Origin: an uncultured Candidatus Saccharibacteria bacterium
GTDB lineage: Bacteria > Patescibacteriota > Minisyncoccia > Phycocordibacterales > CAIZLB01
Direction of reading: 5' to 3'
Length of the DNA stretch: 64,000 bases
Assembly: GCA_964368945.1 (NCBI GenBank)
Contig: CAYJDM010000006.1
Location: 22,546 to 86,545, forward strand
Shown here: piece by piece, positions 12,704-63,810 of the stretch
Layout: every line of letters starts with the position of its first letter
How positions within the stretch are numbered: position 1 is the stretch's first letter
Translations under genes and position numbers: made by a program
The notes under the pieces: generated by a model
Databases searched by the model: none
The model's input: the letters and a program-made list of their open reading frames with translations, nothing else
What the model was told of the DNA's origin: nothing

Positions 12704-15700
12704 CTATAAACCGAGCAAAGCCCTTGTTTTTGGCCCTACGAGGCCCCACCCCGTTGATACGGGATTTCCATAGCAAATGATTACCTTGTCGCATTGGAAT
12801 TTCTTTACGGCAGTCTCAGTAGTTGGGCCGAATACATCCGTCTCTGCCGCCGCATTTGCGGGAACGTCAGGAGCAGATCCATATGGGGCAAAATATCCCA
12901 GCGCCCGCAATGCTGTTCGGAGGGTTTTTACCAAAGATCCTTTGGAGCCGAGCATGAGCGAAGGCTTCTTCGGAGCCGCGGGAGCAGGATCGTTTGCCGG
13001 CGCAGCGGCATCGCTGCCATTCGCGGCATTCACGCTCGCTCTAGTTGCGGGACCGAATCTTCCTGCTGGCGGCTGGATGCCCTTCGATGCCTGGTATTTT
13101 GCTACCGCGGCCTTCGTCGCGGCTCCGAACGATGTCGTTTCTTTTCCCGGCGAGCCTGCGCCGCTCTGCGCGACCCTGAAGCCGTTGGCATTGAGGAAGA
13201 TTTGCAGCTGGCGCACGTCTTCTCCAGTCGAGCCGACAGAAAGATCCCGGAGGAATCTGTATGCATTGCCGATGCCTGATCCGTTTACGCCTGCGGGATT
13301 CGCTCCTGCCCAAGCCGTGCATCTCTGTCCCGTCGCATTGCTGAAGATCTGGCCCACGAGGCAGACGACCGGCGCGCCAGGATTTGCTGCAGTCGATGTC
13401 GCGGTCGATGATCCGTTTCCATAAATGATCGTGATGTTGCCGCCGGATGAATATCCTCCGCCTCCGCCGGACGATCCTCCTCCCGATCCGCCAGAACCTC
13501 CGCCATTTCCAGGATCCGGTGGCGTCACCACTATGACGCCCAATTCCGGATATCCATCAGCCACCTTGAGCCAAGTCGTATTGAAGTTCCATGAATCCAG
13601 TGGGGCATTCGTATTGTTGTTCTTGAAATAGTCGGAATTGTCTTCTATGCCTGTGCAGCCTGCTGGATCAGGATCCAGGTCGCTAGTACATAATCGATTG
13701 CTCGCAAGGGTTTTGTCATAGAATGAATTAGTGAAGGTCGAAACGTCTGCCGCATACCCTGTCATGGCCCCGACATACAGATCATCGCTTGAAGATGTCG
13801 CTATCGATACCGCCGCAAAAGAGTTATTGATATTTGTTCTAGCGGATCCCACAAGGCCTGCAACACCCTGGACCACATTGGGATTAGCGACGCTTGCGAC
13901 GATGTCGCCAGCGGCATAACTTTTTGAAATTGTTGCGCCTGCCCCATCGGTACCGATGATGCCTCCGATATAATTCACATAAGACTGGGTGGAGGTAGCA
14001 TGGATTGCCCCTGTCCAATAGCTATCCGAAATCGAGAGAGGCGCTGTAACGCTACCAATAATTCCACCAACTGTATCGATATACCCGCTGTCAGCAGAAA
14101 GCATAAGGCCGACTTCAGTTGAGGTCTTGCTGATCGTCCCGCCGGTATGCTGACCAATAAGTCCCCCTATGTCTTGCAGCTCGTTGGTGCTAGTCGCATT
14201 TATGCGCCCAGACACATGCATATTCTCGAGAGACCCCTGTCCGTCAGCAGTGTAGCTATATCCGAATAAGCCGCCGACACTAGTCATTCCGCTTACCGAG
14301 ACAAGCTGCATGTCTGTTAGAACTATAATATTTTCTATTGCCTGACTCTGATTTTTACCAGCGAATCCGCCGATATAGCTACCGCCGCCGAAATCGATAG
14401 CTAATGTGCTGGATGCATAGATATCGTGAGCACTTTCTTCAAATCCAAATAATCCCGCGAAGCCTCCGATTTGGGTAACGCTGGTATCGCTTTGCAGACT
14501 CACATTGACCGTTGAGGTCGCATTCGCCATTGAGGGTCCATGCAGCTCTCCGGCAAAGCCTCCAATACCCTGAGGACCTCCGACGCTTACGATTTCAACA
14601 GACCCTGATGCAGAAATAACACTGAAGTCGGCAATGGCATATCCAAAGAGACCGCCAACTGCGTATGCGGAATTAGAAGCATTTATATGCATATCAACAT
14701 CGGCGATTGCATTGCTCATAGAAGCCCCGGCAAATTGCCCGAACAGGCTTCCGGTATAGCTGACACCCTGTCCCGTGATGTCGATACTGCCGGTCGAAGA
14801 AACTGTATGCGCGATCGCATCGTCGCTGATGAAATATCCAGCCAATCCTCCAACATATGACAGATCACTATCAGACTGCAGATTCATATCCATGGTCGAG
14901 CTAACATTTACGAAAGATAACCCCGTGAAATACCCTATGACACCTCCAAAATATGAGCCGGCGGACGAAGATGCATTGATATTTCCAGACGACGAGCTTG
15001 AAGCGATGAGGCTTTCGCCATTGTCGTTGTCGATCTGGCCGACAAGTCCGCCAGCCCCATATGCAGATCCAGAATTTGCAGCAGCTGATATCGTTCCAGA
15101 ATAGTGGCTATTGGTCAATGTCACTTTTGCCCCAGTGCCGACCCCAAGCAAGCCGCCGGCATGACCCTGATTCGACTGCACAGTTCCCACACTCGATACA
15201 TCGTCCATGACAAGATCTGACGAATTCGAATACCCGACAACTGATCCCACATATTCATTGCCAGAAACAGATCCGCTGATATTGAAATTGCGGAATACGC
15301 CGCCAGATACATATCCGAACAGACCTACGAAGTCCTCATCTGGTCTATCTATGTTCAAGCCCGAAATCGTATATCCGTTTCCGTCGAACGAGCCGGTAAA
15401 CGGATTGCCGACGGTACCCACAGGAATAAACCCTTTGCCATCATTATCAGGATCGAAGCCGGTACAATCTATATCGTTCGCCAATACAAATGAGGCATAT
15501 AAGTCTTGAGACATGGCCTGCAATTCCGTACATGTCGTGATTGACACAAGTGACTTCGCGGTAAATGACTGAATGGCTCCGTACGCTGTTCCGACCGGAT
15601 TCTTGCTATATGCCTGGAAATAATATGTGGTTCCTGTTACCAGTCCCGTTATTTCCTCTGAGAAATTCCCAGTTCCAGTAAATGCACCAAGCGTAGTTGT

Positions 15701-18700
15701 TGAAACGCCCGTCGAGAGATCGCTCACAGTGCCATATATGAAGCCATGCTCAGTGGCATCCGCGCCCATAATATCGTCTATGCTGCCATTTAGGGTCGCA
15801 CTTGAATTAGTTACAAGCGAGGCACTTCCCGTAGTTACAGACTGAACATTATTCGTCAAAAATGATAGCCTCTGCCCGTATTCTATGCCTGTGCCATTGT
15901 TGGCATATGCGCGGAAATAATATGTCGTACCTGGAGCCAATCCGGAAATATTCGCAGAATAATCTCCGACTCCGACAAATGTGCCAAGTGTAGTCGTGGA
16001 AACGTCGCTAGAGAAATCGTTCGCCGTGCTGTATGCAAATCCATGCTGAAATGCATCAATGCCACTTATGTCATATATCGAGCCGTGCAAAGTTGCGGTC
16101 GTGCCCAAAACAGAAGTTGCCGGATGCGTAAGCGGCGCAATGATAGGAGCATAGATCTTTATGCGATTATTCGAGGTATCGGCGATGTACAGAAAACCGC
16201 GAGGATCTCGGAAAATACCCCCAGGGAAGCTGAATTGGTCGGCGCCTGATCCCTGAGAACCGAAACTCTTTATAAATATTCCGTCAGGTGAGAATTGCTG
16301 AACGCGATGGTTGTATGTATCGGCTATATATGCGATGCCGGTTGAAGTAGAGACGGTCACATCTTGCGGTCCTAGAAATCCGGGACCCCCGCTTACGAAG
16401 AACTGGAATACTCCAGCTGAATTGAACTTCGATACGCGATGATTGAGGAAGGTGTCTGTTATATAAATATTGTCTTCGGCATCAATTGCGACTCCATAAG
16501 CGCCTCCGTATTGACCATTGCCGCTTCCTGAGCTGCCGATATTCGTGATAAATGATCCATTTGAATCAAATTTCATGACTTTGGTAGGACCAAGGTCCGC
16601 TACATAAATATTGCCCATGCTGTCCAAGGCGATTCCCTCGACCTGATTAAATATGCTTGCATTCCCGAATTGCGAAAGATACGCTCCATTGGCATCAAAC
16701 TTCTGAACCCTCTTATTGCCAAAGTCAGTCACATATAGATTTCCGGAATGATCGATCGCTATATAGCGAGGAGAATTGAATTCGCCATCGCCAGAGCCCG
16801 ATGTGCCGAATTGCGATAGGTAATTTCCTGCGGCATCAAATTTCTGAATGCGATTATTGCCGGTATCCACTACGAAAATATTTCCATTGGAATCCGTGAC
16901 CACGCCTCTCGGACCGCTGAACTGCCCATCACCGGAACCAGACGTTCCGAATGAAGTATTGCCATCATTATCAGCGATCGTTATGGTGACCGATGAAACC
17001 GCCGCCTCATTGAAATCCGGATCTGAAGATGCGGCAGTTCCTGTGACAGTAACTGTCTTGATATTATTGTAAATACTGTCATCAATTGCAGAAACCGTTA
17101 CCGTCTGGGGCTGGTCCCAATCGCCTGATGTGAATGTGAGCATTTGCGGAGAGATTGATGCACCAGACCCCGCAATCGGAGTTGATGTAGCAAGCGTGAT
17201 CACGACATCGCTAGAAGGCTGCTGCTCCAGTACTATGTCGAATGAGTCATCGGATCCCCCTTCAGTAAGCGATATATCGGTCGGTGTGACGCTGACAGGA
17301 GAATTTCCAAATACCGGATAGTCGTTCGTCACGGCCTTCCATACATCAACGAAATCCCATGAGCTCATTGGCTCATTTATATTATTGCCCTTGAAATATT
17401 CTGAGTTGCCCGTAATGGCGGTACAACCGGATGGATCTGATTGATCGCTGCCGCTGCAATAATCTTGGCCGCTTAGTGTTTTGTCATAAAAGTTATTCGT
17501 AAGAACGGTGCCATTATCTCCTATAAAGGCACCGACATTCGTAGCAGGATCAACAGAATTCATAGAGAATGCAACAGCCGCAAATGAATCCGCGATATGG
17601 TCTCCAGACATTGAACCTGCCAAACCGCCGACGCTCTCGATTACAGAGCTTGAATCGAGAGCGATATTTCCGACAGTATAGCTTCGATTGATTGAAGAAG
17701 CTCCTCCTATTCCGATAATGCCACCGATATCCGAAACATAGGAGAGCTCAGAAGTCAGATCCATATCGCCCGTCCAATATGCATCAGAAATAGCGACATC
17801 GTAGTTACTGTCAAAGCCGATAAGTCCGCCAATGCGATCTATGTGTCCGTCTGAAACAATGTGAATGTCAACCGAAGAATTGCTTCGCTCAAAAGTCGCC
17901 CCGACATAATATCCAAAGATGCCAGCCACATCCTCGACTCCAATATCAGGATCACCCGAAGTTGATTCGATATCGATGCTTCCAGACGAGGAGACATTTT
18001 CCGCAGATGCACTTGGTTCAGTCCAGTATCCAACCAATCCGCCAATATGATTGGAATTCGAATCAGACACGATGCTTATGATTGCAGATGAGCTGCTATT
18101 GTTTATTGACGCACCAGCGTATTCACCTACGAGTCCTCCGATATCGCTTCCAGATCCTGTAAAATTGAAATTCATATTGCCCGATACTGAGCTTGATTCT
18201 ATATAACTGCCAGACGCATTAACACCTCCTATCAAACCTCCGAAACACGATGCGCCCGTCTGAGTTACCACTTCAATATTTCCTGAATAATGACCATTAG
18301 TAACCGTGATAATGGACACGCCTGTTCCTACCAACCCTCCGACACAGTCGGCAGAACCAGTAATCGCAACGGAGCTGTTCACATTTTCGATTACGAGATC
18401 CCCTCCATTTTGATTTGAATATCCGACGAGAGATCCGATCACGCCAGATCCGCTTATCGATCCGGCAATAGTCACATTGCTGAATGATCCTCCCGTCACA
18501 ACTCCGAACAGACCCACGTTTTCTTCCTCAGGCCGATTTATTGTCAGGTTCGAGATGGTGTGGCCGTTTCCATCGAATGACCCTCTAAACTCATCGCTTA
18601 GATTTCCGACAGGAATGAATCCCTTGCCATTATTCTCAGGATCGAATCCCGTACAATCGATATCGTTCGAAAGCGTATAATCTTGCGTTAGATCATAGGC

Positions 18701-19093
18701 CATCGCCTGGAGCTCGCTGCAATTCGTGATCGCTGCGTTAACGGGGTCCCCATCATCGGCGATCTCTACCGTGACAAGGCTCACAAGTCCGTCGAAAGAT
18801 ACATCGGACGAAGTCGACGAAGCCGTAATGGTGATAGTTCGAGTACCCGACTGAATGGCATCATCTATCGCGGAAACCGTAACCGTCTGAGGCTGATCCC
18901 AATCGCTTGGCGTGAAAGTCAGCAGTTCAGGCGATACGGTCGCACCCGAACCATTGCCCGGAGTCGAAGTCGCAAACGTTATCACGACATCGTCGGTCGG
19001 CGCTTGCTTGAGCTTGAGCGTGAAAGTATCGCTAGATCCTTCTTCGATTCCAAGATCAGTTTTGGAAAACTTGAACAAAGGATCTCGAAGCAT
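12704..19093 (-). CDS. giant cell-surface protein, C-terminal 2129 aa portion: Calx/Ig-like domains, 2 GLUG-motif beta-helix modules, 6 NHL repeats, 2 Ig-like domains, Gly linker, 2 C-terminal peptidoglycan-binding domains
   Basis: NHL repeats ([34 protein letters not shown] and five more). Repeated G-L-x-G blocks (VGGLVG, IGGLIG) after a conserved CSELQAM...NDIDCTGFD...[15 protein letters not shown] module, present twice. [17 protein letters not shown] linker. Two PG_binding_1-like domains at the C-terminus ([22 protein letters not shown]..., [23 protein letters not shown]...). There is no signal peptide at this ORF's own N-terminus, so it probably continues from the upstream 971 aa ORF (see findings). 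Confidence 0.85.
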   Translation of the reverse strand: [2129 protein letters not shown]

Positions 19094-19226: not shown

Positions 19227-22103
19227 TCATCGATGATCGTTGCAGAAATCCTGGCCGCTTAGTGTTTTATCAAAAAATGTATTATCAAAGCTCGCATAAT
19301 CGGAACCCGTAACCGCGCCGATATTCGAAGTCGGATTCACAGAAACGACCGTTATGCCCACGGCCGAGAACGAATCGACATATTGCGCCTGAATATCATA
19401 TCCTGTCATTCCTCCTATGTTTGAAACCGCATCAGCGGAATCAAGCCACATCTGTCCGGCAGCATATGTCCGCGTGAATATCGATGGATTGGTATCATGG
19501 TACCCAATCATTCCTCCCACGAATGCGATATATGCGCCAGTGCCTGTGGCATTGATCTGGCCACTCCAGTAGCTATCCGTGAAAGAAAGCGCCATCGACG
19601 ATTGGCCTACGAAGCCGCCTACATATGCCACTTCGGCATCCGAATCGAGATGCATCTCGACCGAAGATCTGCTGCGCGCAAATGAAATCTCACTGGCTTC
19701 GCCTTCAGCGAATCCCGTCATGCCGCCGATATCATAGATTTCCGCTGAATCGATCGTGATGCTTCCCAATGCCTGGACGTCATCTATATTGCCTTCGGGA
19801 TATATATATGAATATCCGTTCAGACCGCCGATATACGTAACGGCTCCGCTCGGAGCCTGGATCTCGATATCGGCATCGGCTATAGAATCCGTAATCGAGC
19901 CGGCCCCATAGTCTCCGAACAGGCCTCCTATGAGCGACACGGGGCCATTCGACTCTGTATGTATGGTCCCTGAATATGAGACGCCATCAACGATTCCCAC
20001 TTCATTGTAAAATGCGCCGACCAAGCCTCCGACATTCGCAACCTGGCCGCTCGCATCGGTTATGATGCTTATATCCATGGTCGAGCTGCTATTCGTGATC
20101 GAGGCTCCTTCGAAATAAGCGACCAAGCCTCCCACATCGCTAGACTGCGATGCATTCACATGATTAAAAACAATCGCGCCAGAAGCCGAGCTGTCCGAGA
20201 TGGTGCTGCCGCTTCCACCGCCGCCTGCAGAAAGTCCGCCTATCGAATCAATCTGGCCTCCGTCTCCATCGACTGTTATCGTACCGTCATAGTGGACATT
20301 CGTAAGCGTGGAATCAGGACCGAGATCCATGCTCGCTATCACTCCTCCGACGCCGGTGCCATGCCCAGTCACGTCAGCGGAAGAGAAAACATTCTCGACC
20401 ACAAGATCGTTCGTATCGGAAAGCCCGATAAGGGAACCGACATTGCCAAGCCCTTCCACGTTTCCGGCAAGGCTCACATCCTTGAATGTTCCGCCCTGCA
20501 CATATCCGAACAATCCTACATAATACTCATCAGGCCGTGCAATCGTAAGATTCGAAATAGTGTGTCCATTTCCATCGAATGATCCGGTAAACGGAATGCT
20601 ATCGTCTCCAACAGGCCGGAACCCCTTGCCATCATTGTCGGCATCGAAGCCGGTGCAGTCGATATCGTTCGAAAGCTCATAAGACGCTCCGAGACCTTCG
20701 GACATCGCCTGCAGCTCAGCGCAGTTCGCGATCGGCAGTGCTTCATTGTCCGAAACAGTGACGACGACATTGGAAATGATAACGCCGTTGAAATCACTAT
20801 CCGCTGAAGAGACAGACGCCGAGACATCTACGGTTCTCTGAGGATTTCCGACTCCATCATCAATACCCGTAACGGTTACGGTTTGCGGCTCATCCCAATT
20901 TCCAGGCATGAAGGTAAGCACCTCTGGGGAAATTGACGCGCCTGCCCCAACGCCAGGAGTCGAAGTCGAAAGAGTCACGATTACGTCATTTGCAGGCTGT
21001 CGATCGAGCACGTACGTAAATGTCGAAGAATCTCCTTCCTCGACGGAAAGCGCATTTACAGATGGGCTCACAAGCGTCGGGATGAATTTTTGAATACGCC
21101 CATTGTTCCCATCGGTCACGTATATATTGTTGGCGGCATCAAAAGCGGTCGCTTGCCCACTATTGCCAAATTCCCCATCACCGGATCCATCTGATCCGAA
21201 CTCAAATAGATATTTTCCGTCGTTGGTAAACGCTCTAATGCGCGCATTTGAGGAGCTTGTAACGTAGACAGTTCCATAATTATCTATTGATACGTCTTGA
21301 GCCCTGCCCAAGTCCGCATTTGATTGAGCGTCGAGACCGGGCTGACAATCTGAAGTACATACCTGATACTCCCTGTTTCCGTCGATAACGCCTTGGCCAA
21401 AGGTCAGAATAAAATTACCGGCGGAATCGAATTTCTGGACGCGATGAGCATTGTATTCGGTGACGAAGATGTTTCCAGAAGCATCTACTGCTATGCCTTG
21501 CGCGGCCGAAAACTGATTATTGCCGAATTGAGAAATATAATTCCCATCAGAATCAAACTTTTGAATCCGTGAATTATCGCTATCAACAACGAGAATGTTG
21601 CCAGACCCGTCAATCGCGATATCATGCACGAATCCGAATTCGCCGTCGTCGCTGCCTGCAGGGCCGCCGATATAGGAAACAAAATCGCCATTTGAATCGA
21701 ATTTCTGGACGCGACTATTGAGCTCGTCAGCCACGTATACATTCCCGGAAGAATCCACTGCTATCCCCTGAGGGCCGTTGAACTGGCCATCGCCGGAACC
21801 AAAGGAGCCGAATTGAGAAATGTATGTCCCCGTAGGATCGAATTTCTGCACCCGATGAGAAGTGCTGTCAGTGACATATATATTCCCTGCGCTATCCAAT
21901 GCGATGCCGAACGGACGATCGAACTGCCCGTCACCGGAACCCGCTGAACCGAATTGGCTCGCATACTGCATTCCTGCTTTGACTTCGTTTGGGGAGAAAA
22001 GCGTACTGACTAAACCTATTACCATGACTGCAACTAGAGCAAAACGCATCGGATATGCCAAAACCCTTCGCTTTGATTTTTTTAAATTAAAGAGTTTCAA
22101 CAT
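19227..22103 (-). CDS. giant cell-surface protein, N-terminal portion: signal peptide, 6 NHL repeats, Calx/Ig-like domain, GLUG module; ends in a premature stop in the middle of a conserved module
   Basis: Start placed at the ATG at 22103 ([43 protein letters not shown], a signal peptide). The ORF-track start at 22142 is GTG. NHL repeats ([33 protein letters not shown] and others). The same CAELQAM...DIDCTGFD...[11 protein letters not shown] GLUG module as the downstream ORF. The ORF stops at ...[15 protein letters not shown], in the middle of the motif that continues in the other frame. Confidence 0.8.
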   Translation of the reverse strand: [958 protein letters not shown]

Positions 22104-22217
22104 ACTTAAAAATACTGAGTTCGCCAAAGCGAGGGACAGCACATATATGCCAAATTATATCATGCGGGAGGCATGATTCTCAGTAAAACGTTGAAAACTA
22201 TGGCTATTTGCGTATTT

Positions 22218-29055: not shown

Positions 29056-31065
29056 TTACCAAGGGGTTACCGTGAACGTAGGGCTTTCAGCGTCGATATA
29101 CGAAGTATTGTTTGCTGGATATGTTCCATAGCCCAGGCCGAAGACCTTGAGGAAGTAGCCCGACTTGAGCTCTTCCTTCGTCTTGCCGGTTCGCGTCACG
29201 AATCGATTGACTATCTCATTCGTTATCTTGACCGGAGTGCCAGTCGCAGTGACGGTCGTCTGAGGAACCATGACTTCCCACTGTCCAGGAGAAAGCTTAT
29301 TCTGAAGCTGAACCTGGAATCCATAATGGCGGAACTTTGCGAGATTTCCGAATACCCAAGTCATATTGATATCAGGAGATGTGCTTGCATATGCGAATCC
29401 CGCGACCGGAGCAGTTACTCGGAGATATGGATTCGTGCTCGAAGCTTCCGCAGCCGTAGCGCCGGTAGTTCCTGTCGTCCCGGTTGTTCCAGTTGATGCG
29501 GTGTCGTATGCGAATACGAATTTGTCTCCATTATTTCTTGTCAAAACCATTCGGCCATTTTCGAGAGAAACCGTCGCGCCTGATGTCATCATGGCTATGA
29601 ATGAAGTTTCGGCAGGGGCGATGATAGCTGCCGTGCAGGCCATCATCGTAGATGTGAGATTAGGGGCAGTGATCACATTGCCCGTTCGAGTGAATGAGCC
29701 CGAGATCGAATTGCAGATATTCGCAGAAAGCGTTCCATTTCCTGTTCCATTGCTTGTGAATGTCAACGACGGAGTCTGCATAGGCGTAGTGAAGTCTCCA
29801 TTGAATGAAAGGAGCTTGAATGGAGTCGATGCGAGATATACGAGATTCGTCCCAGTATTGCCAGTTCCTGTATTCGTATTGGTATTCGCAGGCGCATTCG
29901 GATTCGTCACCGTGATCACGCCGCTTTCATCATATGCGAGCGCGCTCCACTGCGTTGGGCTTCCGCTCGTCTCGCCTGCCGGTCGCAAATATACTCGGAC
30001 CTTGTACGTTCCACCTGGAATATCAGAAGGCACAGGAATGGTAGTCGTCACATTAGAGACCGGATTATTCGGAGTGAATGATCCTAGAGAATATCCGCCT
30101 GAAACAGAATCATAGTAAGAGCCATCGCCTGACAAAGCCGAGCCAGACTGCGGGATCAGATAGAATGACAATGAATATACCTTGTCGGATGAGATCGTGC
30201 TCTGATATGCAAAGCTTCCTCCCGCGGCAACCGTTCCCGATGTCGGCGAAGTGATATCGATCATGGCAGCGCCAGTGCTGCCCGTATTTCCTCCATTCGC
30301 AATATCGAAGACCGTGAATTCTGAGCTGAAAGCCTGTCGGCACTGGATGCTCGAAAGCGCTGTACAAGAAGGGGTCACTTTTATCTTATATGTGAAATCC
30401 TTATTCAATGCGGAAGACAAAGTGAATGTCGAAGTTTTTCGTCCTGCTGCAGTCGCATATACCGTGCCGAATCGCTGGAATACGGTATCGCCTCGCACCA
30501 AGTCCACTGCATATGACATCCATGTCGGATTGCTCGTAGGATTCGGAACCGGATTATCAATCGATACGGTAATAGTTCCTCCGGCCGTATATCGATCATA
30601 TCGCGTCGGAGAGCTGACGATGATTCCGAGGGCTGGATTCGAAACCGTAGACCCTGTCGATCCGGTGCTGCCCGTTCCGGCAGTAGGATCAGTTGGCACT
30701 ACGCTAGAGTTGGGATTACAGCTGATTTCTCGAATCTTTTCTCGAGTCAAAGATCCCACATATCCTGCAGGGCTAGCCGGGATATTGTACTGTCGCTGGA
30801 ATGCGCTGGCCGCATTTCGCGTCTGAGGGCCAAAGAGGCCATTCGGAGTCGCAGCGAGATAGCCCGCGCTTTTCAGAAAGTTCTGGAGAACCGTAACCGC
30901 TCCGCCTGTAGAGGCATCAGTCATCGGATATTTCAAATTGACCGCGATATTCGCACAAGCCATGGTCGAAGCCGTCTGCGCATTCGCAGAAGTCGCTCCA
31001 GCCGTGGCGCTAATAAAGAATGCTAATAAAAATACTAGTGTCTTGTAAACGTGAACTTTTTTCAT
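29056..31065 (-). CDS. secreted protein with N-terminal peptidoglycan-binding domain and repeated Ser/Thr-rich beta-sandwich domains
   Basis: Signal peptide MKKVHVYKTLVFLLAFFISATAGATSANA. PG_binding_1-like segment YPMTDASTGGAVTVLQNFLKSAGYLAATPNGLFGPQTRNAASAFQ. TGSTGSTGST and TGTTGTTGTTG linkers. Repeated Kre9/KNH-like domains. Confidence 0.6.
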   Translation of the reverse strand: MKKVHVYKTLVFLLAFFISATAGATSANAQTASTMACANIAVNLKYPMTDASTGGAVTVLQNFLKSAGYLAATPNGLFGPQTRNAASAFQRQYNIPASPAGYVGSLTREKIREISCNPNSSVVPTDPTAGTGSTGSTGSTVSNPALGIIVSSPTRYDRYTAGGTITVSIDNPVPNPTSNPTWMSYAVDLVRGDTVFQRFGTVYATAAGRKTSTFTLSSALNKDFTYKIKVTPSCTALSSIQCRQAFSSEFTVFDIANGGNTGSTGAAMIDITSPTSGTVAAGGSFAYQSTISSDKVYSLSFYLIPQSGSALSGDGSYYDSVSGGYSLGSFTPNNPVSNVTTTIPVPSDIPGGTYKVRVYLRPAGETSGSPTQWSALAYDESGVITVTNPNAPANTNTNTGTGNTGTNLVYLASTPFKLLSFNGDFTTPMQTPSLTFTSNGTGNGTLSANICNSISGSFTRTGNVITAPNLTSTMMACTAAIIAPAETSFIAMMTSGATVSLENGRMVLTRNNGDKFVFAYDTASTGTTGTTGTTGATAAEASSTNPYLRVTAPVAGFAYASTSPDINMTWVFGNLAKFRHYGFQVQLQNKLSPGQWEVMVPQTTVTATGTPVKITNEIVNRFVTRTGKTKEELKSGYFLKVFGLGYGTYPANNTSYIDAESPTFTVTPW

Positions 31066-59631: not shown

Positions 59632-60477
59632 ATGAGCGATACAGCGAATACCGACAATAAGCCGAATATTTCGGCAATCATACCGACGAGAAATGGCCAT
59701 GCAACGATCGCGCGGGCAATTCAGAGCATGCTGGATCAGACTTTGGTTCCGTCTGAGATCTTGATCATTTCTGACAATGATGTGATAGACGCTGCGGGCA
59801 AGATCGCATCCGATGAGCTGCATGCCGTCATCGCTAACAATTTTGCAAATGAAAGTTTCTCAGAAGACGCAAGAGGCAAAATCCGCATAATCCAAGGACC
59901 ATCGAAAGGCCCCGGAATTGCCCGCAATCTCGGAGTCGAAAAGGCATCGAACGATCTGATCGCCTTTCTCGACGATGACGATATATGGAGCGATAAGCAG
60001 AAGCTCGAGAAGCAGGCCGCTTATCTGGCAAACCACCCTGAGATAGATGTCGTCGGAGCGGAGACAGCTTTTTTCATAAGAGAGAATGGCGAAAAATTCC
60101 AGACAATAACACAGCCAACAGATCCTGAGGCGGTACGCGATCAGATGCTTGTCCGCAATCCCCTCATCACATCTTCCGTCTTGATGCGCCGACAGGCATT
60201 CATCGATGCGAAAGGCTTCAAGCCAATGTATCTCGCCGAAGACTATGACCTCTGGCTGCGCATGAATCGCAAGCGAAATCGAATCTCAAATGTACCCGGC
60301 ACATCGATCGAATATACCGTACGCGAAGGCAGCGCTTCCCAGAAAAGAAAAGTCCGCATGGCATATGCGGTCGCTTCTCTCGTATTCAAGAATGCATTTT
60401 TTTATCCAAATAAATTCGCAATCGTAAAAGCGAAATGGCCAATCTTCAAGAGATTGCTAGCTGAGAAGCTTCGATAA
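59632..60477 (+). CDS. glycosyltransferase family 2
   Basis: ISAIIPTRNGHATIARAIQSMLDQT (GT2 N-terminus), AFLDDDDIW (DxD). Confidence 0.7.
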   Translation: MSDTANTDNKPNISAIIPTRNGHATIARAIQSMLDQTLVPSEILIISDNDVIDAAGKIASDELHAVIANNFANESFSEDARGKIRIIQGPSKGPGIARNLGVEKASNDLIAFLDDDDIWSDKQKLEKQAAYLANHPEIDVVGAETAFFIRENGEKFQTITQPTDPEAVRDQMLVRNPLITSSVLMRRQAFIDAKGFKPMYLAEDYDLWLRMNRKRNRISNVPGTSIEYTVREGSASQKRKVRMAYAVASLVFKNAFFYPNKFAIVKAKWPIFKRLLAEKLR

Positions 60478-63051
60478 GGTATCTATATCGACTTCCGGCG
60501 CGGCTGGCTGTGCCGCAGGCGCAGGAGTATGCGCTTGCGCTTGAGTTTCAGCATGCGGCTTATGGTGAGCGGCATGATGCGAAGCCAGTTTTGATTCAGC
60601 GTGAGGAGTCGGAGTCCTATGTTCAGTGTGCGGCGCATTGACAGGATGTGAAGCATGCATTGCGCGAGAATCCGTATCAGCAGACCGTGCGCCGCTTTGC
60701 GCATGCTGCCTTTCTGGATGCACGGCATGAGTGCGTGATGATGCATCGTGAGCATGGGTTCGAGGCTGGGCATGATGCGCAGGATTATCGGTTCGAGGCG
60801 CATGCGTCTGCTGAGCAGGTGTCGGCGCTGGCGCAGGGGCTATCGGTACAGATTGCGGTTGTGGCTGCGGACGAGATTGGGGCAGCGACTGCGGTTGTGA
60901 TGCCGGCGCTTCTCTCTCAGGATTCGAAGGCACTTCTCCAAGCACGCCGAGCAAGGCATTCTTTAGATCAAGGATGTTTTGAGGCTTGGCTGTCTTTGCC
61001 TCATTTCTCACCTTCTGCTCTTCCTCATTTCGGCTTTTCAAATAATTGAGCGAGATCGCTTCGCGCAGGGATTTCTCCCTATCGACTGCTGGCTCGATCG
61101 AATCGACGCTGGAATTCTTGTGAACCTCATGATCATTCCTGAAACCGCGCGGAGATGCCGCGACGGATTCCGTCGGATCCTGCTCTTCGAGGCCTTCGAC
61201 TTTTTCTCCAGCCAAAAGGCTCTCGAATGCCTTAGCAAAAGGCTTCTCTGTCTTTGGGCTGCTTGGACCGCGGCCATCATCGCGACGAGGTCTATCGTCT
61301 GATCGCTCGCCGAACCTACTTCCTGTGCGGTCGCCTGCAGGCCTGTCTCCGCCTCTGTCATTTGATCGTCCGGCAAAGCTTCCAGCATTCGGCGCTCCGC
61401 CGCTCGATCTCTCCGGAGATCTTTCTCCGAATCTTTCGCCTCCTCTACCGCCGCGATCGCCCGATCCCGACATAGACGAATTCGCAGATGAGCCGCCTGC
61501 AAATCCAGAATCTCGTCTCGGCGGCCGATCGCCATAATTGCCAGCGCCTTGTGATCCGCCGCCCGATGATCGCGGAGCGCTATCTCGATTGTCTCTATTG
61601 CCAGAGAATCCGCCTTCGCGTCCGCCTCTGTCGCCGCCGCCAGCATATCCTCCGCCCTGACCTCCTCCTTGGCCACTCTGTCCACCCTGAGGGTGCGATG
61701 AAGGCGCGCCATATCCGCTCGAGCCGCCGCCTGCGCTTGGTGCATTGGGACCTGGCAGGATTTTATCAATATGCCATTGTCGAATCATATCTTCTACCTG
61801 CTCGCGAGGATGCGCGAACTGTGCTCGAGACGAATCGATGATTTCCTTTACATATGTCTTCTCAGGCTTTGCGATCGGCGCCATTCCCATGGCAGAAAAA
61901 GGAGGCGAAGTAACATAGTCGATCATGAGCTTCAGATACATCTGATATTGCTGCAAGTTCACGAGGTCCTCGGCGCTGAATTGCGGCACGAATTCTTTTT
62001 CAAAAACAGCCGCATCGTATGCGCCCACTCGGAATACGACCATGGAACCGACGTTACCGAATACGGCAGCGCGCACTTCCTCGGTCATCTGCTCGATATA
62101 TTGGTGAGCGATGGTGAGCGAGAGCTTATACTTTCGTGCCTCGGACAAGATATCGGCAAATGATTCATTGGCAAAAGACTGAAACTCATCCACATAGAGA
62201 TAGAATTCAGCCGCTTCCTTGAGCTCCTTCTCATTCAAGTCGGCTCGTGACATCGCGGCGAGGTAGATCTTGGTAATGAGCATGGCTCCGAGCAAGTTCG
62301 CATTCGCCTCGCCAACTCGTCCCTTCGACAGGTTCACTATGAAAATCTTCTTCTGATCCATCATCGCTCGGATATCGAAAGAAGATTTCGGCTGGCCTAT
62401 GATATTTCGTACGAGCGGATTGGCTACGAATTGTCCTACCTTGTTCTGGATGGCAGGAGCGGCCTCGGCTGCGAATTTGTCCGTATATTTTGCATATTCA
62501 TCTACCCAGAATGATCGCACTGATGGATCAGTGATATTGTTCACCACCGTCGTTCTGAAATCCTTGTCCACGAGCATGCGGTTCACGCCCATCAATGTAG
62601 ACTCTGGATATTCGAGAAGAGCGAGCATGATATTCGAAAGGATATATTCCATTCGAGCAGAGAAGGCATCCACCCAGATTCGCTTGAAAGCGGACATGAG
62701 GCCGTTGACGACGAGATGTCTTTTTTCTGGACCTACATCCTCGAGCACATTGAAAGAGATGGGGTGATCGAGGTCGAAAGGCGCGAAATATACGACATCC
62801 TTGATGCGATGCTCTGGAATATATTCGAGGAGGAAGTCCGCGGACTTTCCGTGAGGGTCGATAAAGGCAAGCCCTTCCCCATTCTGAATATCCTGAATCG
62901 CCAGGTTTTCAAGAAAAGTCGACTTACCCATACCCGTCTTTCCGATGACGTACATGTGTCGCGAGCGGTCTTTTTTCTTTATGCCAAAACGCACCCGCTT
63001 ATTGCGGGCATCCGTCTCGCCGAAATATGTTACTCGCTCGTTATCATCCAT
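60457..63051 (-). CDS. TraD/TraG/VirD4-like type IV coupling-protein P-loop ATPase (about 430 aa) fused to an intrinsically disordered C-terminal tail (about 430 aa) rich in RGG and His/Pro/Ala/Gln
   Basis: Walker A YVIGKTGMGKSTFLENL, FIDPHGKSADF, Walker B FYLYVDEFQSFA, LTIAHQYIEQM, and FRVG arginine-finger region. The tail carries GGQSGQGGGQGGGYAGGGDRGGREGGFSGNRD...RGGRGGERFGERS..., then PQPQPQSVPIAPAPAPTPAQQTHAPRTDNPAHHAQPRTHAHDASSRTHAVHPER... The tail DNA is GC-rich and produces spurious overlapping ORFs. Confidence 0.7.
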   Translation of the reverse strand: MDDNERVTYFGETDARNKRVRFGIKKKDRSRHMYVIGKTGMGKSTFLENLAIQDIQNGEGLAFIDPHGKSADFLLEYIPEHRIKDVVYFAPFDLDHPISFNVLEDVGPEKRHLVVNGLMSAFKRIWVDAFSARMEYILSNIMLALLEYPESTLMGVNRMLVDKDFRTTVVNNITDPSVRSFWVDEYAKYTDKFAAEAAPAIQNKVGQFVANPLVRNIIGQPKSSFDIRAMMDQKKIFIVNLSKGRVGEANANLLGAMLITKIYLAAMSRADLNEKELKEAAEFYLYVDEFQSFANESFADILSEARKYKLSLTIAHQYIEQMTEEVRAAVFGNVGSMVVFRVGAYDAAVFEKEFVPQFSAEDLVNLQQYQMYLKLMIDYVTSPPFSAMGMAPIAKPEKTYVKEIIDSSRAQFAHPREQVEDMIRQWHIDKILPGPNAPSAGGGSSGYGAPSSHPQGGQSGQGGGQGGGYAGGGDRGGREGGFSGNRDNRDSAPRSSGGGSQGAGNYGDRPPRRDSGFAGGSSANSSMSGSGDRGGRGGERFGERSPERSSGGAPNAGSFAGRSNDRGGDRPAGDRTGSRFGERSDDRPRRDDGRGPSSPKTEKPFAKAFESLLAGEKVEGLEEQDPTESVAASPRGFRNDHEVHKNSSVDSIEPAVDREKSLREAISLNYLKSRNEEEQKVRNEAKTAKPQNILDLKNALLGVLGEVPSNPEREAPASQPQSLPQSRPQPQPQSVPIAPAPAPTPAQQTHAPRTDNPAHHAQPRTHAHDASSRTHAVHPERQHAQSGARSADTDSRAMHASHPVNAPHTEHRTPTPHAESKLASHHAAHHKPHAETQAQAHTPAPAAQPAAPEVDIDTLSKLLS

Positions 63052-63164
63052 AATGTGCTGTGCTGATGGATAAAGTATATCAGAAAGCGTGGCGGTTTTA
63101 TATGTGCTTTTTTGCGCGAAAGTTGAGCGCTTTTGTATGAGTTTTTATATAAAAAAATAGACGA

Positions 63165-63205
63165 GGGAAAGCCCGCCTGCACTGGGTGCGCGGCGGGCTT
63201 TGAGG
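63165..63205 (-). terminator. intrinsic terminator after the small membrane-protein gene
   Basis: AAAGCCCGCC...GGCGGGCTTT 10 bp stem (63168-63177 and 63192-63201). On the minus strand it is followed by a T-rich run. Confidence 0.5.
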
Positions 63206-63231
63206 CTTTCGCCTGTGGGCCTTTTTGACGA

Positions 63232-63597
63232 TTACTTCGTGCCTTCCGGCGCTTCGTATTCGTCGTAGTAATAGGTCTCGCCTTCTGAGCCGTAGTCGTC
63301 GTACTCTGACTCCGACGTCGATACGGCTTTATAGGCATAGTACCCACCTGCCGGATCTTCATAGGAGAAGCTGAATGTGTCGCCGTACTCGAATCTGGCG
63401 GAATTCACGTAGGTGTACGTCGGAAGCTTAGTGGCTTGAGGTTGCACGGCGCTCACGGTCAGTGAGGAATTCGGCTGGCCTTCAATGACTTCAAGCCGCT
63501 TGATGCGCGCAGCCAGAAAGCTGACGGAGAATGCGAGAGAGAGGGATCCGAGGAATGTGACGGCGAGCAAGGTGTTCTTAAAGGAGTTGATATTCAT
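63232..63597 (-). CDS. small membrane-anchored protein (about 121 aa) with an acidic Tyr-rich C-terminal tail
   Basis: Start placed at the ATG at 63597 (MNINSFKNTLLAVTFLGSLSLAFSVSFLAARIK, TM/signal). C-terminus ...SESEYDDYGSEGETYYYDEYEAPEGTK. The ORF-track start at 63771 would translate through the promoter below. Confidence 0.45.
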   Translation of the reverse strand: MNINSFKNTLLAVTFLGSLSLAFSVSFLAARIKRLEVIEGQPNSSLTVSAVQPQATKLPTYTYVNSARFEYGDTFSFSYEDPAGGYYAYKAVSTSESEYDDYGSEGETYYYDEYEAPEGTK

Positions 63598-63705
63598 GTT
63601 TTCTGAGTGCTGGGTGTTGGAGTGATGTATTTTGGGAAAGAAGCAGATTTGGTCGCAGAATGATCGTTTAAAATCACCGTAGCTACCATGACCTGTCTGG
63701 TATAA

Positions 63706-63734
63706 ATTATACACCTTTATTGTATATTTGTCAA
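63706..63734 (-). promoter_or_regulatory. consensus sigma70-type promoter: TTGACA, 17 nt spacer, TGTATAAT (extended -10)
   Basis: Minus strand reads TTGACAAATATACAATAAAGGTGTATAAT. The plus-strand complement has TGTCAA at about 63729-63734 and ATTATA at about 63706-63711. Nearly identical to the promoter at 26730-26758. Confidence 0.6.
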
Positions 63735-63739
63735 TAGTA

Positions 63740-63770
63740 CGAAAATAGGCCCGGTTGAGGCCTTTTTTCA
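63740..63770. terminator. bidirectional hairpin terminator
   Basis: AAAATAGGCCCGGTTGAGGCCTTTTTT: stem AGGCC / GGCCT with flanking A and T runs. Sits between the partial gene at the window end and the promoter above. Confidence 0.45.
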
Positions 63771-63810
63771 CGAATATCCATAAGAGATACCGGCGTCTTA
63801 ATACTGTGTC

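What the first reader, a model, noticed from the sequence alone, without database searches (positions are those of the whole stretch)
60457..63771. Orphan TraD/VirD4-like coupling ATPase with an RGG-rich and His/Pro-rich disordered tail of about 430 aa, downstream of a small membrane protein driven by a perfect promoter
The N-terminal 430 aa carry the type IV coupling-protein (TrwB/TraD/VirD4, FtsK-HerA superfamily) motif set: Walker A GKTGMGKST, DPHG, Walker B VDEFQ, IAHQ. No VirB4, VirB6, VirB11, relaxase or pilin gene is present in this window. The C-terminal half is low-complexity: GGxGG and RGG repeats typical of nucleic-acid-binding tails, followed by PQ and HA/HT-rich repeats. Directly upstream, between two terminators, a TTGACA-N15-TGTATAAT promoter drives a 121 aa membrane-anchored protein with an acidic Tyr-rich tail (YYYDEYEAP). 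A TGATATACT extended -10 lies just before the ATPase gene. This is a coupling ATPase used outside a conjugation context. Possible roles are DNA or RNA uptake or export, or a defence or competence function. The partner membrane protein and disordered tail are not described in classical T4CPs.
Basis: partly seen in the sequence, partly recalled or inferred. Interest (0 to 1): 0.65.

Follow-up and report, generated by a model that had tools for sequence, protein, structure and literature searches.

The report
Anchorless tailed coupling-type ATPase, Patescibacteria
This is a real gene for a TrwB/VirD4-type motor ATPase that has no membrane anchor and carries a 430-residue disordered tail; it belongs to a very strongly conserved chromosomal family of Patescibacteria (CPR bacteria) that a 2025 survey already counted as coupling-protein homologues far from any secretion system, and its function is still unknown.

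Summary
An 864-aa ORF (60457-63051, minus strand) has an N-terminal TrwB-fold ATPase (residues 1-430, all cited motifs present) and a ~430-aa disordered tail. The perfect promoter, two terminators and a 121-aa membrane ORF upstream are also real.

The gene is a T4CP-type ATPase outside any conjugative element. Window and flanks are ordinary Patescibacteria (Paceibacteria) chromosome.

It is not a one-off. Thousands of homologues exist, with the ATPase domain 70-92% identical across about 80 species and better conserved than neighbouring housekeeping genes. Quinonero-Coronel et al. 2025 already counted this family among 5,713 T4CP homologues, mostly far from virB4.

The small membrane protein is not a partner. 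It occurs in two species and a terminator separates it from the ATPase gene.

The RGG/His-Pro composition is lineage-specific and tracks genomic GC. What is conserved in the tail is a ~65-aa island and a C-terminal peptide (consensus EVPEDVLRKIL).

Paralogues pair with, or are fused to, DUF8128, a membrane protein with a tentative VirB4 N-terminal-domain-like fold. That fusion also occurs in SPO1-like phages.

Best reading: a soluble ring translocase docked to a partner through its tail motifs. Function is unproven.

The parts
61762..63051 (-). TrwB/VirD4-fold ATPase domain, residues 1-430. Walker A is at residue 37 and Walker B at 287. An all-alpha insertion spans about residues 105-225. There is no transmembrane segment.
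   Evidence: Motifs. Pfam T4CP models. AF2 pLDDT about 95. Foldseek best match is TrwB, with TM 0.62-0.65 normalised to TrwB. Maximum Kyte-Doolittle 19-residue hydropathy is 1.25, with no window above 1.6.
61105..61746 (-). Disordered linker 1, residues 436-649. It is Gly/Ser/Arg-rich (RGG, GGxGG) and hypervariable between species.
   Evidence: Composition. pLDDT below 50. Tail identity to the nearest relatives is 19-45%. Composition tracks GC.
60910..61104 (-). Conserved tail island, residues 650-714 (KSLREAISLNYLK ... PQNILDLKNALLGVLGE), with two short predicted helices.
   Evidence: An island HMM scores 62 bits on the window. It is present in 197 of 205 clade members, above every shuffled tail. 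Helices 656-664 and 690-704, the latter in a 10-residue block of mean pLDDT about 73.
60496..60909 (-). Disordered linker 2, residues 715-852. It is Ala/Pro/His/Gln-rich and hypervariable.
60457..60495 (-). C-terminal peptide, residues 853-864 (PEVDIDTLSKLLS), plus the stop codon. It is a sub-clade variant of the family motif EVPEDVLRKIL.
   Evidence: The motif is in 171 of 205 close homologues, with a median of 3 residues between it and the C-terminus, above 99% of shuffled tails. The variant EVD[IFY]DTLSKLL is shared with L001, L082 and L091. Helix 856-863 has pLDDT about 82.
63052..63110 (-). Conserved upstream block of the ATPase gene. It includes the extended -10-like TGATATACT (63082-63074) and a 5-bp inverted repeat CTGAT...ATCAG. 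The leader is about 16 nt with no obvious Shine-Dalgarno sequence.
   Evidence: Sequence. The block is almost invariant in sister locus L091. No transcription data are available.
63232..63596 (-). Neighbouring 121-aa ORF with an N-terminal hydrophobic helix and an acidic Tyr-rich C-terminus. It is a young lineage-restricted gene, not part of the ATPase system.
   Evidence: Two hits among 5.8 billion proteins. One 44%-identical sister sits in the same slot and shares the core TYTYVNxARFExxDxFSFSYEDPAGGYY. Absent from 80 related loci.
63706..63734 (-). Consensus sigma-70 promoter TTGACA-17-TATAAT of the small ORF.
   Evidence: 12 of 12 matches. Conserved in L091.
63159..63178 (-). Intrinsic-terminator-like hairpin with a T-run between the small ORF and the ATPase gene.
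   Evidence: The stem is kept in L091, with base changes on both arms that are consistent with compensation.
63747..63763 (-). Terminator-like hairpin after the upstream DUF4015 gene, just before the promoter.
   Evidence: The DUF4015 gene runs off the window end and is complete in L081.

Best explanation
Statement.
The gene encodes a catalytically intact ATPase of the type IV coupling protein (TrwB/VirD4) fold. It has lost, or never had, a membrane anchor. It has become a vertically inherited, strongly constrained core gene of Paceibacteria-type Patescibacteria. It is not cargo of a conjugative element.

Proposed mechanism.
1. The ATPase domain assembles into a ring, as TrwB does, and uses NTP hydrolysis to translocate or remodel a polymer. 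DNA or RNA is most likely; an unfolded protein is possible.
2. The C-terminal half acts as a long flexible tether. Its sequence is free to drift, while a ~65-residue island with two helices and a C-terminal amphipathic peptide are kept as docking motifs.
3. These motifs bring the soluble motor to a partner, probably at the membrane.
4. A paralogue in the same genomes does the equivalent job through a dedicated membrane partner, DUF8128. DUF8128 looks like a VirB3-like helix plus a VirB4 N-terminal domain and is fused to the ATPase in other lineages and in SPO1-like phages.

Shown: fold, motifs, lack of an anchor, conservation pattern, synteny, tail anatomy, existence of the paralogue and of DUF8128.
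Inferred: ring assembly, substrate, docking role of the motifs, identity of the partner.
For: - Fold and motifs. TrwB is the best structural match (TM 0.62-0.65 normalised to TrwB, about 415 aligned columns). It is also the best sequence-profile match in the PDB (E 1.4e-6). The Walker A lysine, Walker B D288/E289, R306 and Q317 are invariant across 85 homologues.
- No anchor. No hydrophobic segment is present.
- Core gene. More than 8,000 homologues scored in one search. There are 5,805 50%-identity cluster representatives at E<1e-30 and at least 587 tblastn-confirmed genomic matches in the one-genome-per-species collection. The ATPase domain is 69-92% identical across the loci. It is better conserved than syntenic neighbours: 74% vs 56% for RsmI, and about 80% vs 45-65% for DUF4015, RadC and 6PGL.
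- Fixed housekeeping synteny. The order is 6PGL-RadC-RsmI-DUF4015-ATPase-glycosyltransferases.
- No T4SS nearby. Window.
- Independence from VirB4. T4CP homologues are in 2,918 of 3,035 Patescibacteria assemblies against 2,417 for VirB4, and only 148 of 5,713 lie near virB4 (PMC12102498). Four of five named genomes with this gene are listed as VirB4-negative.
- Tail. Every homologue has one (93-460 aa). Its sequence is hypervariable and its composition follows GC. The island is kept in 197 of 205 members and the C-terminal peptide in 171 of 205, and both are predicted helical.
- Paralogue and DUF8128.
Against: - No experiment exists for any member of this family.
- The one cultured patescibacterium with Tn-seq data (Southlakia) tolerates loss of its t4cp homologue (as cited in PMC12102498). 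Whether that gene is an orthologue of this one is unknown.
- Ring assembly and substrate are inferred from TrwB only.
- The window's own C-terminal peptide scores below the threshold of the family matrix (0.3 against 5.1). It is recognised only by its position and by sharing the variant with its nearest relatives.
- The VirB4-like fold of DUF8128 rests on Foldseek alone, with low TM (0.34-0.39) and no sequence signal.
- DUF8128 was not found in the window or within +/-10 kb of any window-type gene.
Confidence: 0.5

Rival explanations
1. It is the genuine coupling protein of the chromosomal Patescibacteria T4SS (MPF-FATA-like), encoded in trans. It recognises substrates and hands them to VirB4/VirB6, using the tail motifs to bind substrate adaptors or the channel.
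For: It has the T4CP fold with an all-alpha domain. The Patescibacteria T4SS clusters lack a recognisable coupling protein (PMC10633639). About 80% of assemblies have VirB4. Encoding a T4CP far from virB4 is not unusual (PMC12102498). Classical T4CPs such as F TraD also use C-terminal tails to bind partners (general knowledge; PF12696 is marginal here).
Against: It has no transmembrane domain. T4CP homologues are more widespread than VirB4 (2,918 vs 2,417 assemblies). Four of five named carriers are listed as VirB4-negative, although one of them keeps VirB2, VirB3 and TrsD, and MAGs are incomplete. In Southlakia the T4SS is essential but the t4cp homologue is not. Conservation is far higher than is usual for T4CPs.
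Confidence: 0.25
2. It is a T4SS-independent DNA translocase in housekeeping DNA transactions. Candidates are chromosome segregation or resolution at division (FtsK-like), repair (HerA-like), or pulling DNA in during natural transformation. The C-terminal peptide would recruit it to the divisome or the uptake machinery.
For: It belongs to the FtsK-HerA-T4CP superfamily, and HerA is the second-best structural match. It is a core, highly conserved gene. Its architecture (globular NTPase, variable disordered linker, conserved C-terminal peptide) resembles that of FtsZ, and the peptide loosely resembles the FtsZ C-terminal peptide (recalled from memory, not tested). One DUF8128-ATPase pair lies about 3.5 kb from comEC.
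Against: At least Saccharibacteria do have FtsK (papers listed). No FtsZ, FtsA or competence gene sits next to the window-type gene. No FtsZ was available to compare the peptides. The RGG region is not conserved. Deleting comEC is not lethal in Southlakia (PMC12857230).
Confidence: 0.15
3. It is a component of an anti-phage or anti-plasmid defence system (MADS mad8-like or HerA-like).
For: PADLOC mad8 gives E 2.2e-14 (51.7 bits), stronger than any Pfam T4CP model, and several HerA defence models hit weakly. Non-CPR homologues sit among recombinases and transposases (Sulfitobacter plasmid, 41% identity). Some homologues are tandem ATPases whose C-terminal region looked nuclease-like by eye only and was not tested (P0249).
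Against: The chromosomal position is fixed and the sequence conservation extreme across about 80 species, which is unlike patchy, fast-evolving defence islands. No other mad genes, nuclease or DNA methyltransferase lie next to it. The neighbours are glycan-synthesis and housekeeping genes.
Confidence: 0.05
4. It is an ordinary mobile-element T4CP, a remnant of an integrated conjugative element.
For: T4CP profile hits. Distant homologues occur on plasmids of Streptomyces, haloarchaea and Sulfolobus.
Against: No integrase, relaxase, VirB4 or VirB6 lies in 64 kb or beyond the window edge. There is no tRNA. GC rises only modestly, to 0.54, in the 60-62 kb bin that holds the tail-coding region, against 0.47-0.53 elsewhere. 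Synteny is conserved and descent looks vertical.
Confidence: 0.02

Closest known systems
Type IV coupling proteins TrwB (R388), VirD4, F TraD and DotL
   Same: The fold is the same: a RecA-like nucleotide-binding domain with an inserted all-alpha domain, plus Walker A/B and the AHQ sensor region. TrwB is the best structural and best PDB-profile match. Like TraD and DotL, it has a C-terminal extension with a terminal docking-type peptide.
   Different: It has no N-terminal transmembrane domain. There is no linked relaxase or T4SS. It is a chromosomal core gene and is much more conserved. Its tail is far longer and intrinsically disordered. Curated T4CP models are passed only marginally (Pfam) or not at all (NCBIfam).
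T4CP homologues of Patescibacteria reported by Quinonero-Coronel et al. 2025 (PMC12102498)
   Same: This is that set. The orthologue in GW2011_GWA1_40_21, KKR54179.1, is listed in their Table S3 as T4CP (profile t4cp1), not near virB4. They note that only 148 of 5,713 lie near virB4 and raise possible exaptation.
   Different: The passages and tables I read give counts only. I did not see there the missing membrane anchor, the universal disordered tail with its conserved island and C-terminal peptide, the two paralogous loci, the DUF8128 partner, or the phage fusions.
DUF8128-ATPase module: split gene pairs in Parcubacteria, fusions in other lineages, PHROG phrog_5156, Bacillus phage SPO1 gp27.4 and phage G gp156
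   Same: The ATPase domain is homologous: 50-58% identity to the CPR forms and 23-26% to the phage forms, with the same domain boundary at the N-terminal beta-hairpin.
   Different: Those forms carry or adjoin a membrane module, which the window protein lacks. That module is a TM helix plus a ~350-aa domain with a tentative VirB4 N-terminal-domain-like fold. The tail island and C-terminal peptide are mostly absent from them.
HerA/FtsK translocases and the DndH C-terminal domain
   Same: Same ASCE P-loop superfamily, with hexameric ring translocases. Foldseek E is about 1e-13 to 1e-9.
   Different: Structural agreement is lower for HerA (TM 0.4-0.5), and the all-alpha domain is of the T4CP type. 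There is no HAS barrel, no FtsK gamma domain and no NurA partner. The DndH C-domain scores a comparable TM (0.64) but at a weaker E-value (1.1e-9).
MADS defence system protein mad8 (PADLOC PDLC04140)
   Same: It is the best-scoring model in the defence library (E 2.2e-14 over residues 8-373).
   Different: No other MADS genes are nearby. The gene sits at a fixed housekeeping locus and is highly conserved. The biochemistry of mad8 is not described in the text I could read.
FtsZ-type architecture (globular NTPase, variable disordered linker, conserved C-terminal peptide). This is an analogy only.
   Same: The layout is the same, and so is the evolutionary pattern: a hypervariable linker with a conserved terminal peptide.
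   Different: The fold is unrelated. The resemblance of the peptide to the FtsZ peptide is from memory and was not tested (no FtsZ in the held sequence).

Membership tests
Type IV coupling protein (VirD4/TrwB/TraD family) | P-loop nucleotide-binding domain with Walker A, Walker B and conserved catalytic residues | tested here: met
   GKTGMGKST at 37 and VDEFQ at 287. K43, D288, E289, R306 and Q317 are invariant in 85 homologues.
Type IV coupling protein (VirD4/TrwB/TraD family) | All-alpha domain inserted in the nucleotide-binding domain, with overall TrwB-like fold | tested here: met
   Seven helices lie between strands 86-89 and 236-240 in the AF2 model. TrwB is the top Foldseek match, with TM 0.62-0.65 over about 415 columns.
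Type IV coupling protein (VirD4/TrwB/TraD family) | N-terminal transmembrane domain anchoring the hexamer in the membrane | tested here: not met
   The Walker A motif starts at residue 37. The maximum 19-residue hydropathy is 1.25, and no window exceeds 1.6.
Type IV coupling protein (VirD4/TrwB/TraD family) | Genetic linkage to a relaxase and/or a VirB4-containing T4SS | tested here: not met
   None in the 64-kb window, in the 4.8 kb beyond it, or within +/-10 kb in related loci. Four of five named carrier genomes are listed without VirB4. A T4SS elsewhere in this genome cannot be excluded.
Type IV coupling protein (VirD4/TrwB/TraD family) | Scores above the curated family thresholds | tested here: inconclusive
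   Pfam PF10412 (25.8 vs 20.5) and PF02534 (24.6 vs 20.1) pass narrowly. NCBIfam TraD and VirD4 models score 39-49 bits against cut-offs of 250-650.
Type IV coupling protein (VirD4/TrwB/TraD family) | Couples a substrate (relaxosome or effector) to the secretion channel | not testable with these tools
   This needs genetics or biochemistry.
Patescibacteria window-type clade (defined here) | ATPase domain at least ~69% identical, no N-terminal extension, and a disordered tail carrying the island and a C-terminal EVPEDVLRKIL-type peptide | tested here: met
   The window is 69-92% identical to 80 loci. The island scores 62 bits. The C-terminal peptide is present as the variant EVDIDTLSKLL shared with L001, L082 and L091, although it scores below the threshold of the consensus matrix.
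DUF8128-associated ATPase (phrog_5156 type) | DUF8128 module fused to, or encoded immediately upstream of, the ATPase | tested here: not met
   tblastn with four DUF8128 modules finds nothing in the window or in any window-type locus. The upstream genes are the small ORF and DUF4015.
HerA/FtsK translocases | HerA HAS-barrel with NurA linkage, or FtsK transmembrane and gamma domains | tested here: not met
   PF01580 FtsK scores 13 bits against a cut-off of 24. HerA matches are structurally weaker than TrwB. No NurA is nearby.
MADS defence system (mad8) | Presence of the other mad genes in an operon | tested here: not met
   The neighbours are DUF4015, RsmI, RadC and glycosyltransferases. Only the mad8 model hits.

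The most novel reading that the evidence does not exclude
Paceibacteria carry a minimal, T4SS-independent translocation machine derived from the VirB4/VirD4 lineage. One paralogue is membrane-anchored through DUF8128, a VirB3-like helix plus a VirB4-N-terminal-like domain. The other, the window type, is soluble and is recruited on demand through short docking motifs at the end of a disordered tether. The same DUF8128-ATPase unit has been taken up by SPO1-like and other large Bacillus phages. If so, the family would be a missing link between VirB4 and coupling proteins. It would also be an essential-type polymer pump (DNA uptake, DNA segregation, or export to the host cell) in bacteria with about 700 genes.
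Probability: 0.15. Interest if true: 0.8.

Novelty: new variant of a known kind. Interest (0 to 1): 0.5.

Why it matters
Patescibacteria make up a large share of bacterial diversity and have tiny genomes. A gene they keep at 70-90% identity, better conserved than rRNA-methylase or RadC neighbours, is likely to do something central.

Coupling proteins are normally fast-evolving, membrane-anchored parts of mobile elements. An anchorless, core-genome version with a tether-and-peptide architecture shows how a conjugation motor can be domesticated.

The conserved island and C-terminal peptide give concrete handles for finding its partner, through peptide pull-downs or complex prediction.

The link to DUF8128, an uncharacterised family with no paper in the searched library, and to SPO1 gp27.4 gives a genetically tractable system (Bacillus subtilis and SPO1) in which to study the module.

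Tried and rejected
- A DUF8128 protein on a 21,430-bp contig seemed to share a contig with window-type locus L070. It was a different contig of the same length.
- My first translation of the small ORF was out of frame. I redid it.
- I looked for the DUF8128 module as a separate gene in the window and all loci. None was found.
- I looked for FtsZ in all held sequence, to compare C-terminal peptides. None was found.
- The MADS preprint gives no description of mad8.
- The literature search on FtsK in CPR showed only that TM7x has FtsK. This says nothing decisive about Paceibacteria.
- There are no tandem repeats in the tail DNA, and no Rfam family or tRNA in the window.
- I could not retrieve the second T4CP of GW2011_GWA1_40_21 (KKR53198.1), so I could not check whether DUF8128 lies next to it.
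- Rejected: mobile-element T4CP, because of the housekeeping context and vertical conservation.
- Rejected: the small ORF as a partner, because it is restricted to two species and has its own promoter and terminator.
- Rejected: the RGG region as a selected nucleic-acid-binding module, because composition tracks GC and the region is not conserved.

Full report

Yes. The minus strand carries an 864-codon ORF at 60457-63051.
- Residues 436-864 are low-complexity. A Gly/Ser/Arg-rich stretch has four RGG and two GGxGG. After it comes a mixed stretch, then an Ala/Pro/His/Gln-rich stretch.
- The coding DNA has no tandem repeats.
- An AlphaFold2 model built on 85 homologues gives pLDDT of about 95 for residues 1-430 and below 50 for most of the tail.

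Upstream of the gene:
- A 12-of-12 sigma-70 consensus promoter lies at 63734-63706.
- Terminator-like hairpins lie at 63763-63747 and 63178-63159.
- A 121-aa ORF (ATG at 63596) has a hydrophobic N-terminus and an acidic Tyr-rich C-terminus.
- TGATATACT lies at 63082-63074, 22 nt before the ATPase start codon.

Two corrections apply. Everything is on the minus strand. The second terminator lies between the small ORF and the ATPase gene, so the promoter does not drive the ATPase.

**2. What is the ATPase domain?**

- Pfam T4CP models (PF10412, PF02534, PF12696) and DUF87/HerA pass their cut-offs only narrowly. NCBIfam TraD and VirD4 models fall far below theirs.
- By structure the answer is clearer. 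TrwB, the archetypal coupling protein, is the top Foldseek match: TM 0.62-0.65 normalised to TrwB, about 415 aligned columns. It is ahead of DotL (0.54), Cag-beta (0.51) and HerA (0.4-0.5). The DndH C-domain scores a comparable TM of 0.64, but at a weaker E-value.
- A profile of the family finds only TrwB and DotL among PDB sequences.
- The model has a seven-helix insertion between the Walker A and Walker B regions, as the T4CP all-alpha domain does.
- The catalytic residues are invariant in 85 homologues.
- What is missing is the N-terminal transmembrane domain. Walker A starts at residue 37, and no 19-residue window reaches a hydropathy of 1.6.

**3. Where does it come from, and is it orphan?**

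- Homologues and related loci are from Patescibacteria. They are labelled Taylor-, Zambryski-, Adler-, Yonath- and Nomurabacteria, Paceibacterota and Parcubacteria. Many are auto-labelled Saccharibacteria.
- Thirty window ORFs scanned with Pfam gave ordinary chromosomal families. These include SecA, GatB, Obg, GAPDH, transketolase, Rpe, RpiB, an ABC transporter, an AI-2E transporter, giant NHL-repeat surface proteins and a large glycan-synthesis block. A few ORFs gave no match.
- The remaining ORFs at roughly 46-60 kb were inferred from the annotated synteny of L082.
- There are no tRNA genes and no Rfam matches.
- The source contig continues beyond the window edge with DUF4015, a TP_methylase (RsmI-like), RadC and a 6-phosphogluconolactonase-like gene (L081).
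- The same order recurs in a 536-kb contig of a 90%-identical relative, in the closest sister and across the 80 species loci. DUF4015 lies on the same strand within 3 kb upstream in 39 of 62 informative loci. Glycosyltransferase-type genes lie downstream in 59 of 69.
- No relaxase, integrase, VirB4 or VirB6 appears anywhere in these neighbourhoods.

**4. It is a core family, already counted in the literature.**

- One search scored more than 8,000 homologues.
- The exhaustive search found 5,805 50%-identity cluster representatives at E<1e-30.
- At least 587 tblastn-confirmed genomic matches were found in the one-genome-per-species collection.
- The ATPase domain is 69-92% identical over the loci. 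It is clearly more conserved than its syntenic neighbours in the same genomes: 74% vs 56% for RsmI, and about 80% vs 45% for DUF4015, 65% for RadC and 47% for 6PGL.
- Quinonero-Coronel et al. 2025 (PMC12102498) report 5,713 VirD4-type T4CP homologues in 2,918 of 3,035 Patescibacteria assemblies. Only 148 are near virB4, and VirB4 itself is in 2,417 assemblies. They note that the Southlakia homologue is dispensable and that exaptation cannot be ruled out.
- The orthologue in GW2011_GWA1_40_21 (locus L038) is KKR54179.1. This is entry 778 of that genome in their Table S3, labelled T4CP/t4cp1 and not near virB4. The window gene therefore belongs to a set that is already on record, although only as a count.
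- Four of the five named genomes that carry it are listed without VirB4. MAG incompleteness is a caveat, and one of these genomes still has VirB2, VirB3 and TrsD.

**5. The tail.**

- Every homologue has a C-terminal tail of 93-460 residues. The window's 429 is near the top of that range.
- Its sequence is hypervariable. The nearest relatives are 84-92% identical in the ATPase domain but 19-45% in the tail.
- Its composition follows the GC content of the surrounding DNA. Spearman rho is 0.63 for G+A+R+P and -0.60 for F+Y+M+I+N+K, with p about 1e-9. AT-rich genomes have Lys/Glu/Asn/Pro tails and GC-richer ones have Gly/Arg/Ala/Pro tails.
- The RGG and His/Pro character is therefore mostly drift in a region constrained only to stay disordered. 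It is weak evidence for nucleic-acid binding.

Two elements of the tail are conserved:
- An island of about 65 residues (window residues 650-714: KSLREAISLNYLK ... PQNILDLKNALLGVLGE). An HMM of it scores above every shuffled tail in 197 of 205 clade members and gives 62 bits on the window.
- A C-terminal peptide with consensus EVPEDVLRKIL. It is found in 171 of 205 members, with a median of 3 residues between it and the C-terminus.

The window has the variant EVDIDTLSKLL. It shares this variant with its three nearest relatives, but the variant scores below the threshold of the consensus matrix. Both elements are the only helical, higher-confidence parts of the tail in the model: helices 656-664 and 690-704, and helix 856-863 at pLDDT about 82. 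Both are rare in relatives below 55% identity, so they define the window-type clade.

**6. The small upstream protein.**

- It has no homologue in 80 related loci.
- It has only two hits among 5.8 billion proteins: itself and a 44%-identical protein.
- That second protein sits in the same slot in the closest sister genome, where the ATPase domain is 92% identical.
- The promoter, the terminator stem and a roughly 40-nt block upstream of the ATPase start are conserved between the two genomes. The terminator stem has base changes on both arms that are consistent with compensation.
- It is therefore a real but very young gene with its own promoter and terminator. It is not a conserved partner of the ATPase.

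**7. A different membrane partner exists for the paralogues.**

- At about 50% identity, many homologues carry the ATPase at the C-terminus, behind a TM helix and a ~350-residue domain.
- That module exists as a standalone protein family, DUF8128 (PF26449 in precomputed annotation; the local Pfam copy does not hit it).
- In Parcubacteria it is encoded immediately upstream of a T4CP-like ATPase, in a second conserved core locus: SecD-SecF-sigma70-DUF8128-ATPase-EF-P.
- Those ATPases are 56-58% identical to the window protein.
- GW2011_GWA1_40_21 has two separate T4CP genes. The two types therefore look like paralogues that coexist, although I could not verify DUF8128 next to the second gene.
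- DUF8128 has no P-loop (1 of 120 members has the pattern) and models confidently (pLDDT 85).
- The fused form is PHROG family phrog_5156. The ATPase matches its positions 391-805 at E 2e-56, and DUF8128 matches positions 50-355 at E 6e-17.
- It is present in SPO1-like Bacillus phages (SPO1 gp27.4, 906 aa), CP-51, JL and phage G gp156. No function is annotated for any of them.
- Further homologues are on plasmids of Sulfitobacter (41% identity, among recombinases and transposases), Streptomyces and haloarchaea.
- The PADLOC model mad8 of the MADS defence system hits at E 2e-14.
- No paper in the searched library mentions DUF8128.

**8. How it most likely works.**

The shown facts are these:
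- a catalytically intact TrwB-fold ATPase without an anchor;
- strong purifying selection on the domain;
- a fixed housekeeping locus;
- a tail that is free to vary except for two short helical motifs;
- a paralogue tied to a membrane protein.

From these I infer a soluble ring translocase. Its disordered tail would act as a tether, and its island and C-terminal peptide would dock it to a partner, probably at the membrane. The substrate is unknown. By analogy with TrwB, HerA and FtsK it is most likely nucleic acid.

Rivals:
- A true coupling protein serving the chromosomal Patescibacteria T4SS in trans. This is plausible because those T4SS clusters lack a coupling protein (PMC10633639). It is weakened by the missing anchor, by a wider distribution than VirB4, and by the dispensability of the homologue in Southlakia.
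- A housekeeping DNA translocase for division, repair or DNA uptake.
- A defence ATPase. This is unlikely, given the fixed locus and the conservation.
- A mobile-element remnant. This is excluded.

**9. Novelty and verdict.**

The gene family is known only as a line in a survey and as an automatic annotation ([quoted passage not shown]). In the papers and tables I read, I did not find the following:
- the anchorless architecture;
- the universal tether with two conserved motifs;
- conservation exceeding that of housekeeping neighbours;
- the paralogous DUF8128 module with a tentative VirB4-like fold;
- the phage fusions.

I rate it a new variant of a known kind, of moderate interest. The proposed partner and the functional reading of the RGG/His-Pro composition do not.

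Noticed in passing
L083:8001-11192, L085:8001-10813 and L087:10001-12773 (not in the window): A second conserved core locus in Parcubacteria: SecD-SecF-sigma70-DUF8128-T4CP-like ATPase-EF-P. DUF8128 (a TM helix plus a ~350-aa domain, no P-loop) has TrwK/VirB4 as its 13 best Foldseek PDB matches. No paper in the searched library mentions it.
   Followed up: partly
L090:3825-6545 (Bacillus phage SPO1 gp27.4); also phage G gp156, CP-51 and JL: Large Bacillus phages encode the DUF8128-ATPase fusion (PHROG phrog_5156, function unknown). This gives a tractable model for the module.
   Followed up: partly
window 63232-63596 (-) and L091:4217-4594: The small ORFan has a conserved core, TYTYVNxARFExxDxFSFSYEDPAGGYY, behind a variable hydrophobic N-terminus. 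It is driven by a perfect consensus promoter with a ~100-nt leader and is known from only two genomes.
   Followed up: yes
window 63052-63110 (-): A ~40-nt block before the ATPase start codon is almost invariant between two species whose tails have diverged to 45% identity. It contains TGATATACT and the inverted repeat CTGAT-N11-ATCAG, and leaves a very short leader without a Shine-Dalgarno sequence. It could be an operator or a structured start region.
   Followed up: partly
window 60457-60477: The 3' ends of the ATPase gene (-) and the convergent GT2 glycosyltransferase gene (59632-60477, +) overlap by 21 nt. A similar 24-nt convergent overlap is seen in relative L082 (12149-12172).
   Followed up: no
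window 12704-19093 (-) and 19227-22142 (-): Two adjacent giant predicted surface proteins. One is 2,129 aa with NHL-repeat beta-propeller domains, a weak, below-cut-off fibronectin-III match (19.8 bits vs 25) and two peptidoglycan-binding domains. The other is 971 aa with NHL repeats and a GLUG motif. More PG_binding_1 proteins lie at 8000-10261 and 29056-31065 (the latter with a META domain).
   Followed up: no
window about 36467-60477: A glycan-synthesis block of about 24 kb. It includes a 917-aa Wzy_C O-antigen-ligase-like protein with TPR, a flippase, a GT1-FkbM methyltransferase fusion (709 aa), a UDP-glucose dehydrogenase and epimerases (scanned here). GT11-like and GT2 genes at its ATPase-proximal end were inferred from L082 synteny. 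Related loci instead carry up to seven tandem GT1 paralogues downstream of the ATPase (cluster 2).
   Followed up: no
L081:2524-4077 and related loci: DUF4015 is 465-517 aa in the window's closest relatives. In other lineages it is about 390-430 aa and is preceded by a separate ~70-110-aa small membrane protein (cluster 4). This suggests a gene fusion or split at its N-terminus.
   Followed up: no
L072 and L073, the gene immediately upstream of the ATPase: In two loci the slot between DUF4015 and the ATPase holds a type IV pilin-like gene (N-terminal GFTLIELLVVIAIIG).
   Followed up: no
P0249 (1,193 aa; not in the window): A distant homologue has two tandem T4CP-like ATPase domains. By eye its C-terminal region resembles a PD-(D/E)xK nuclease, hinting at a defence-like use of the family outside CPR.
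   Followed up: no
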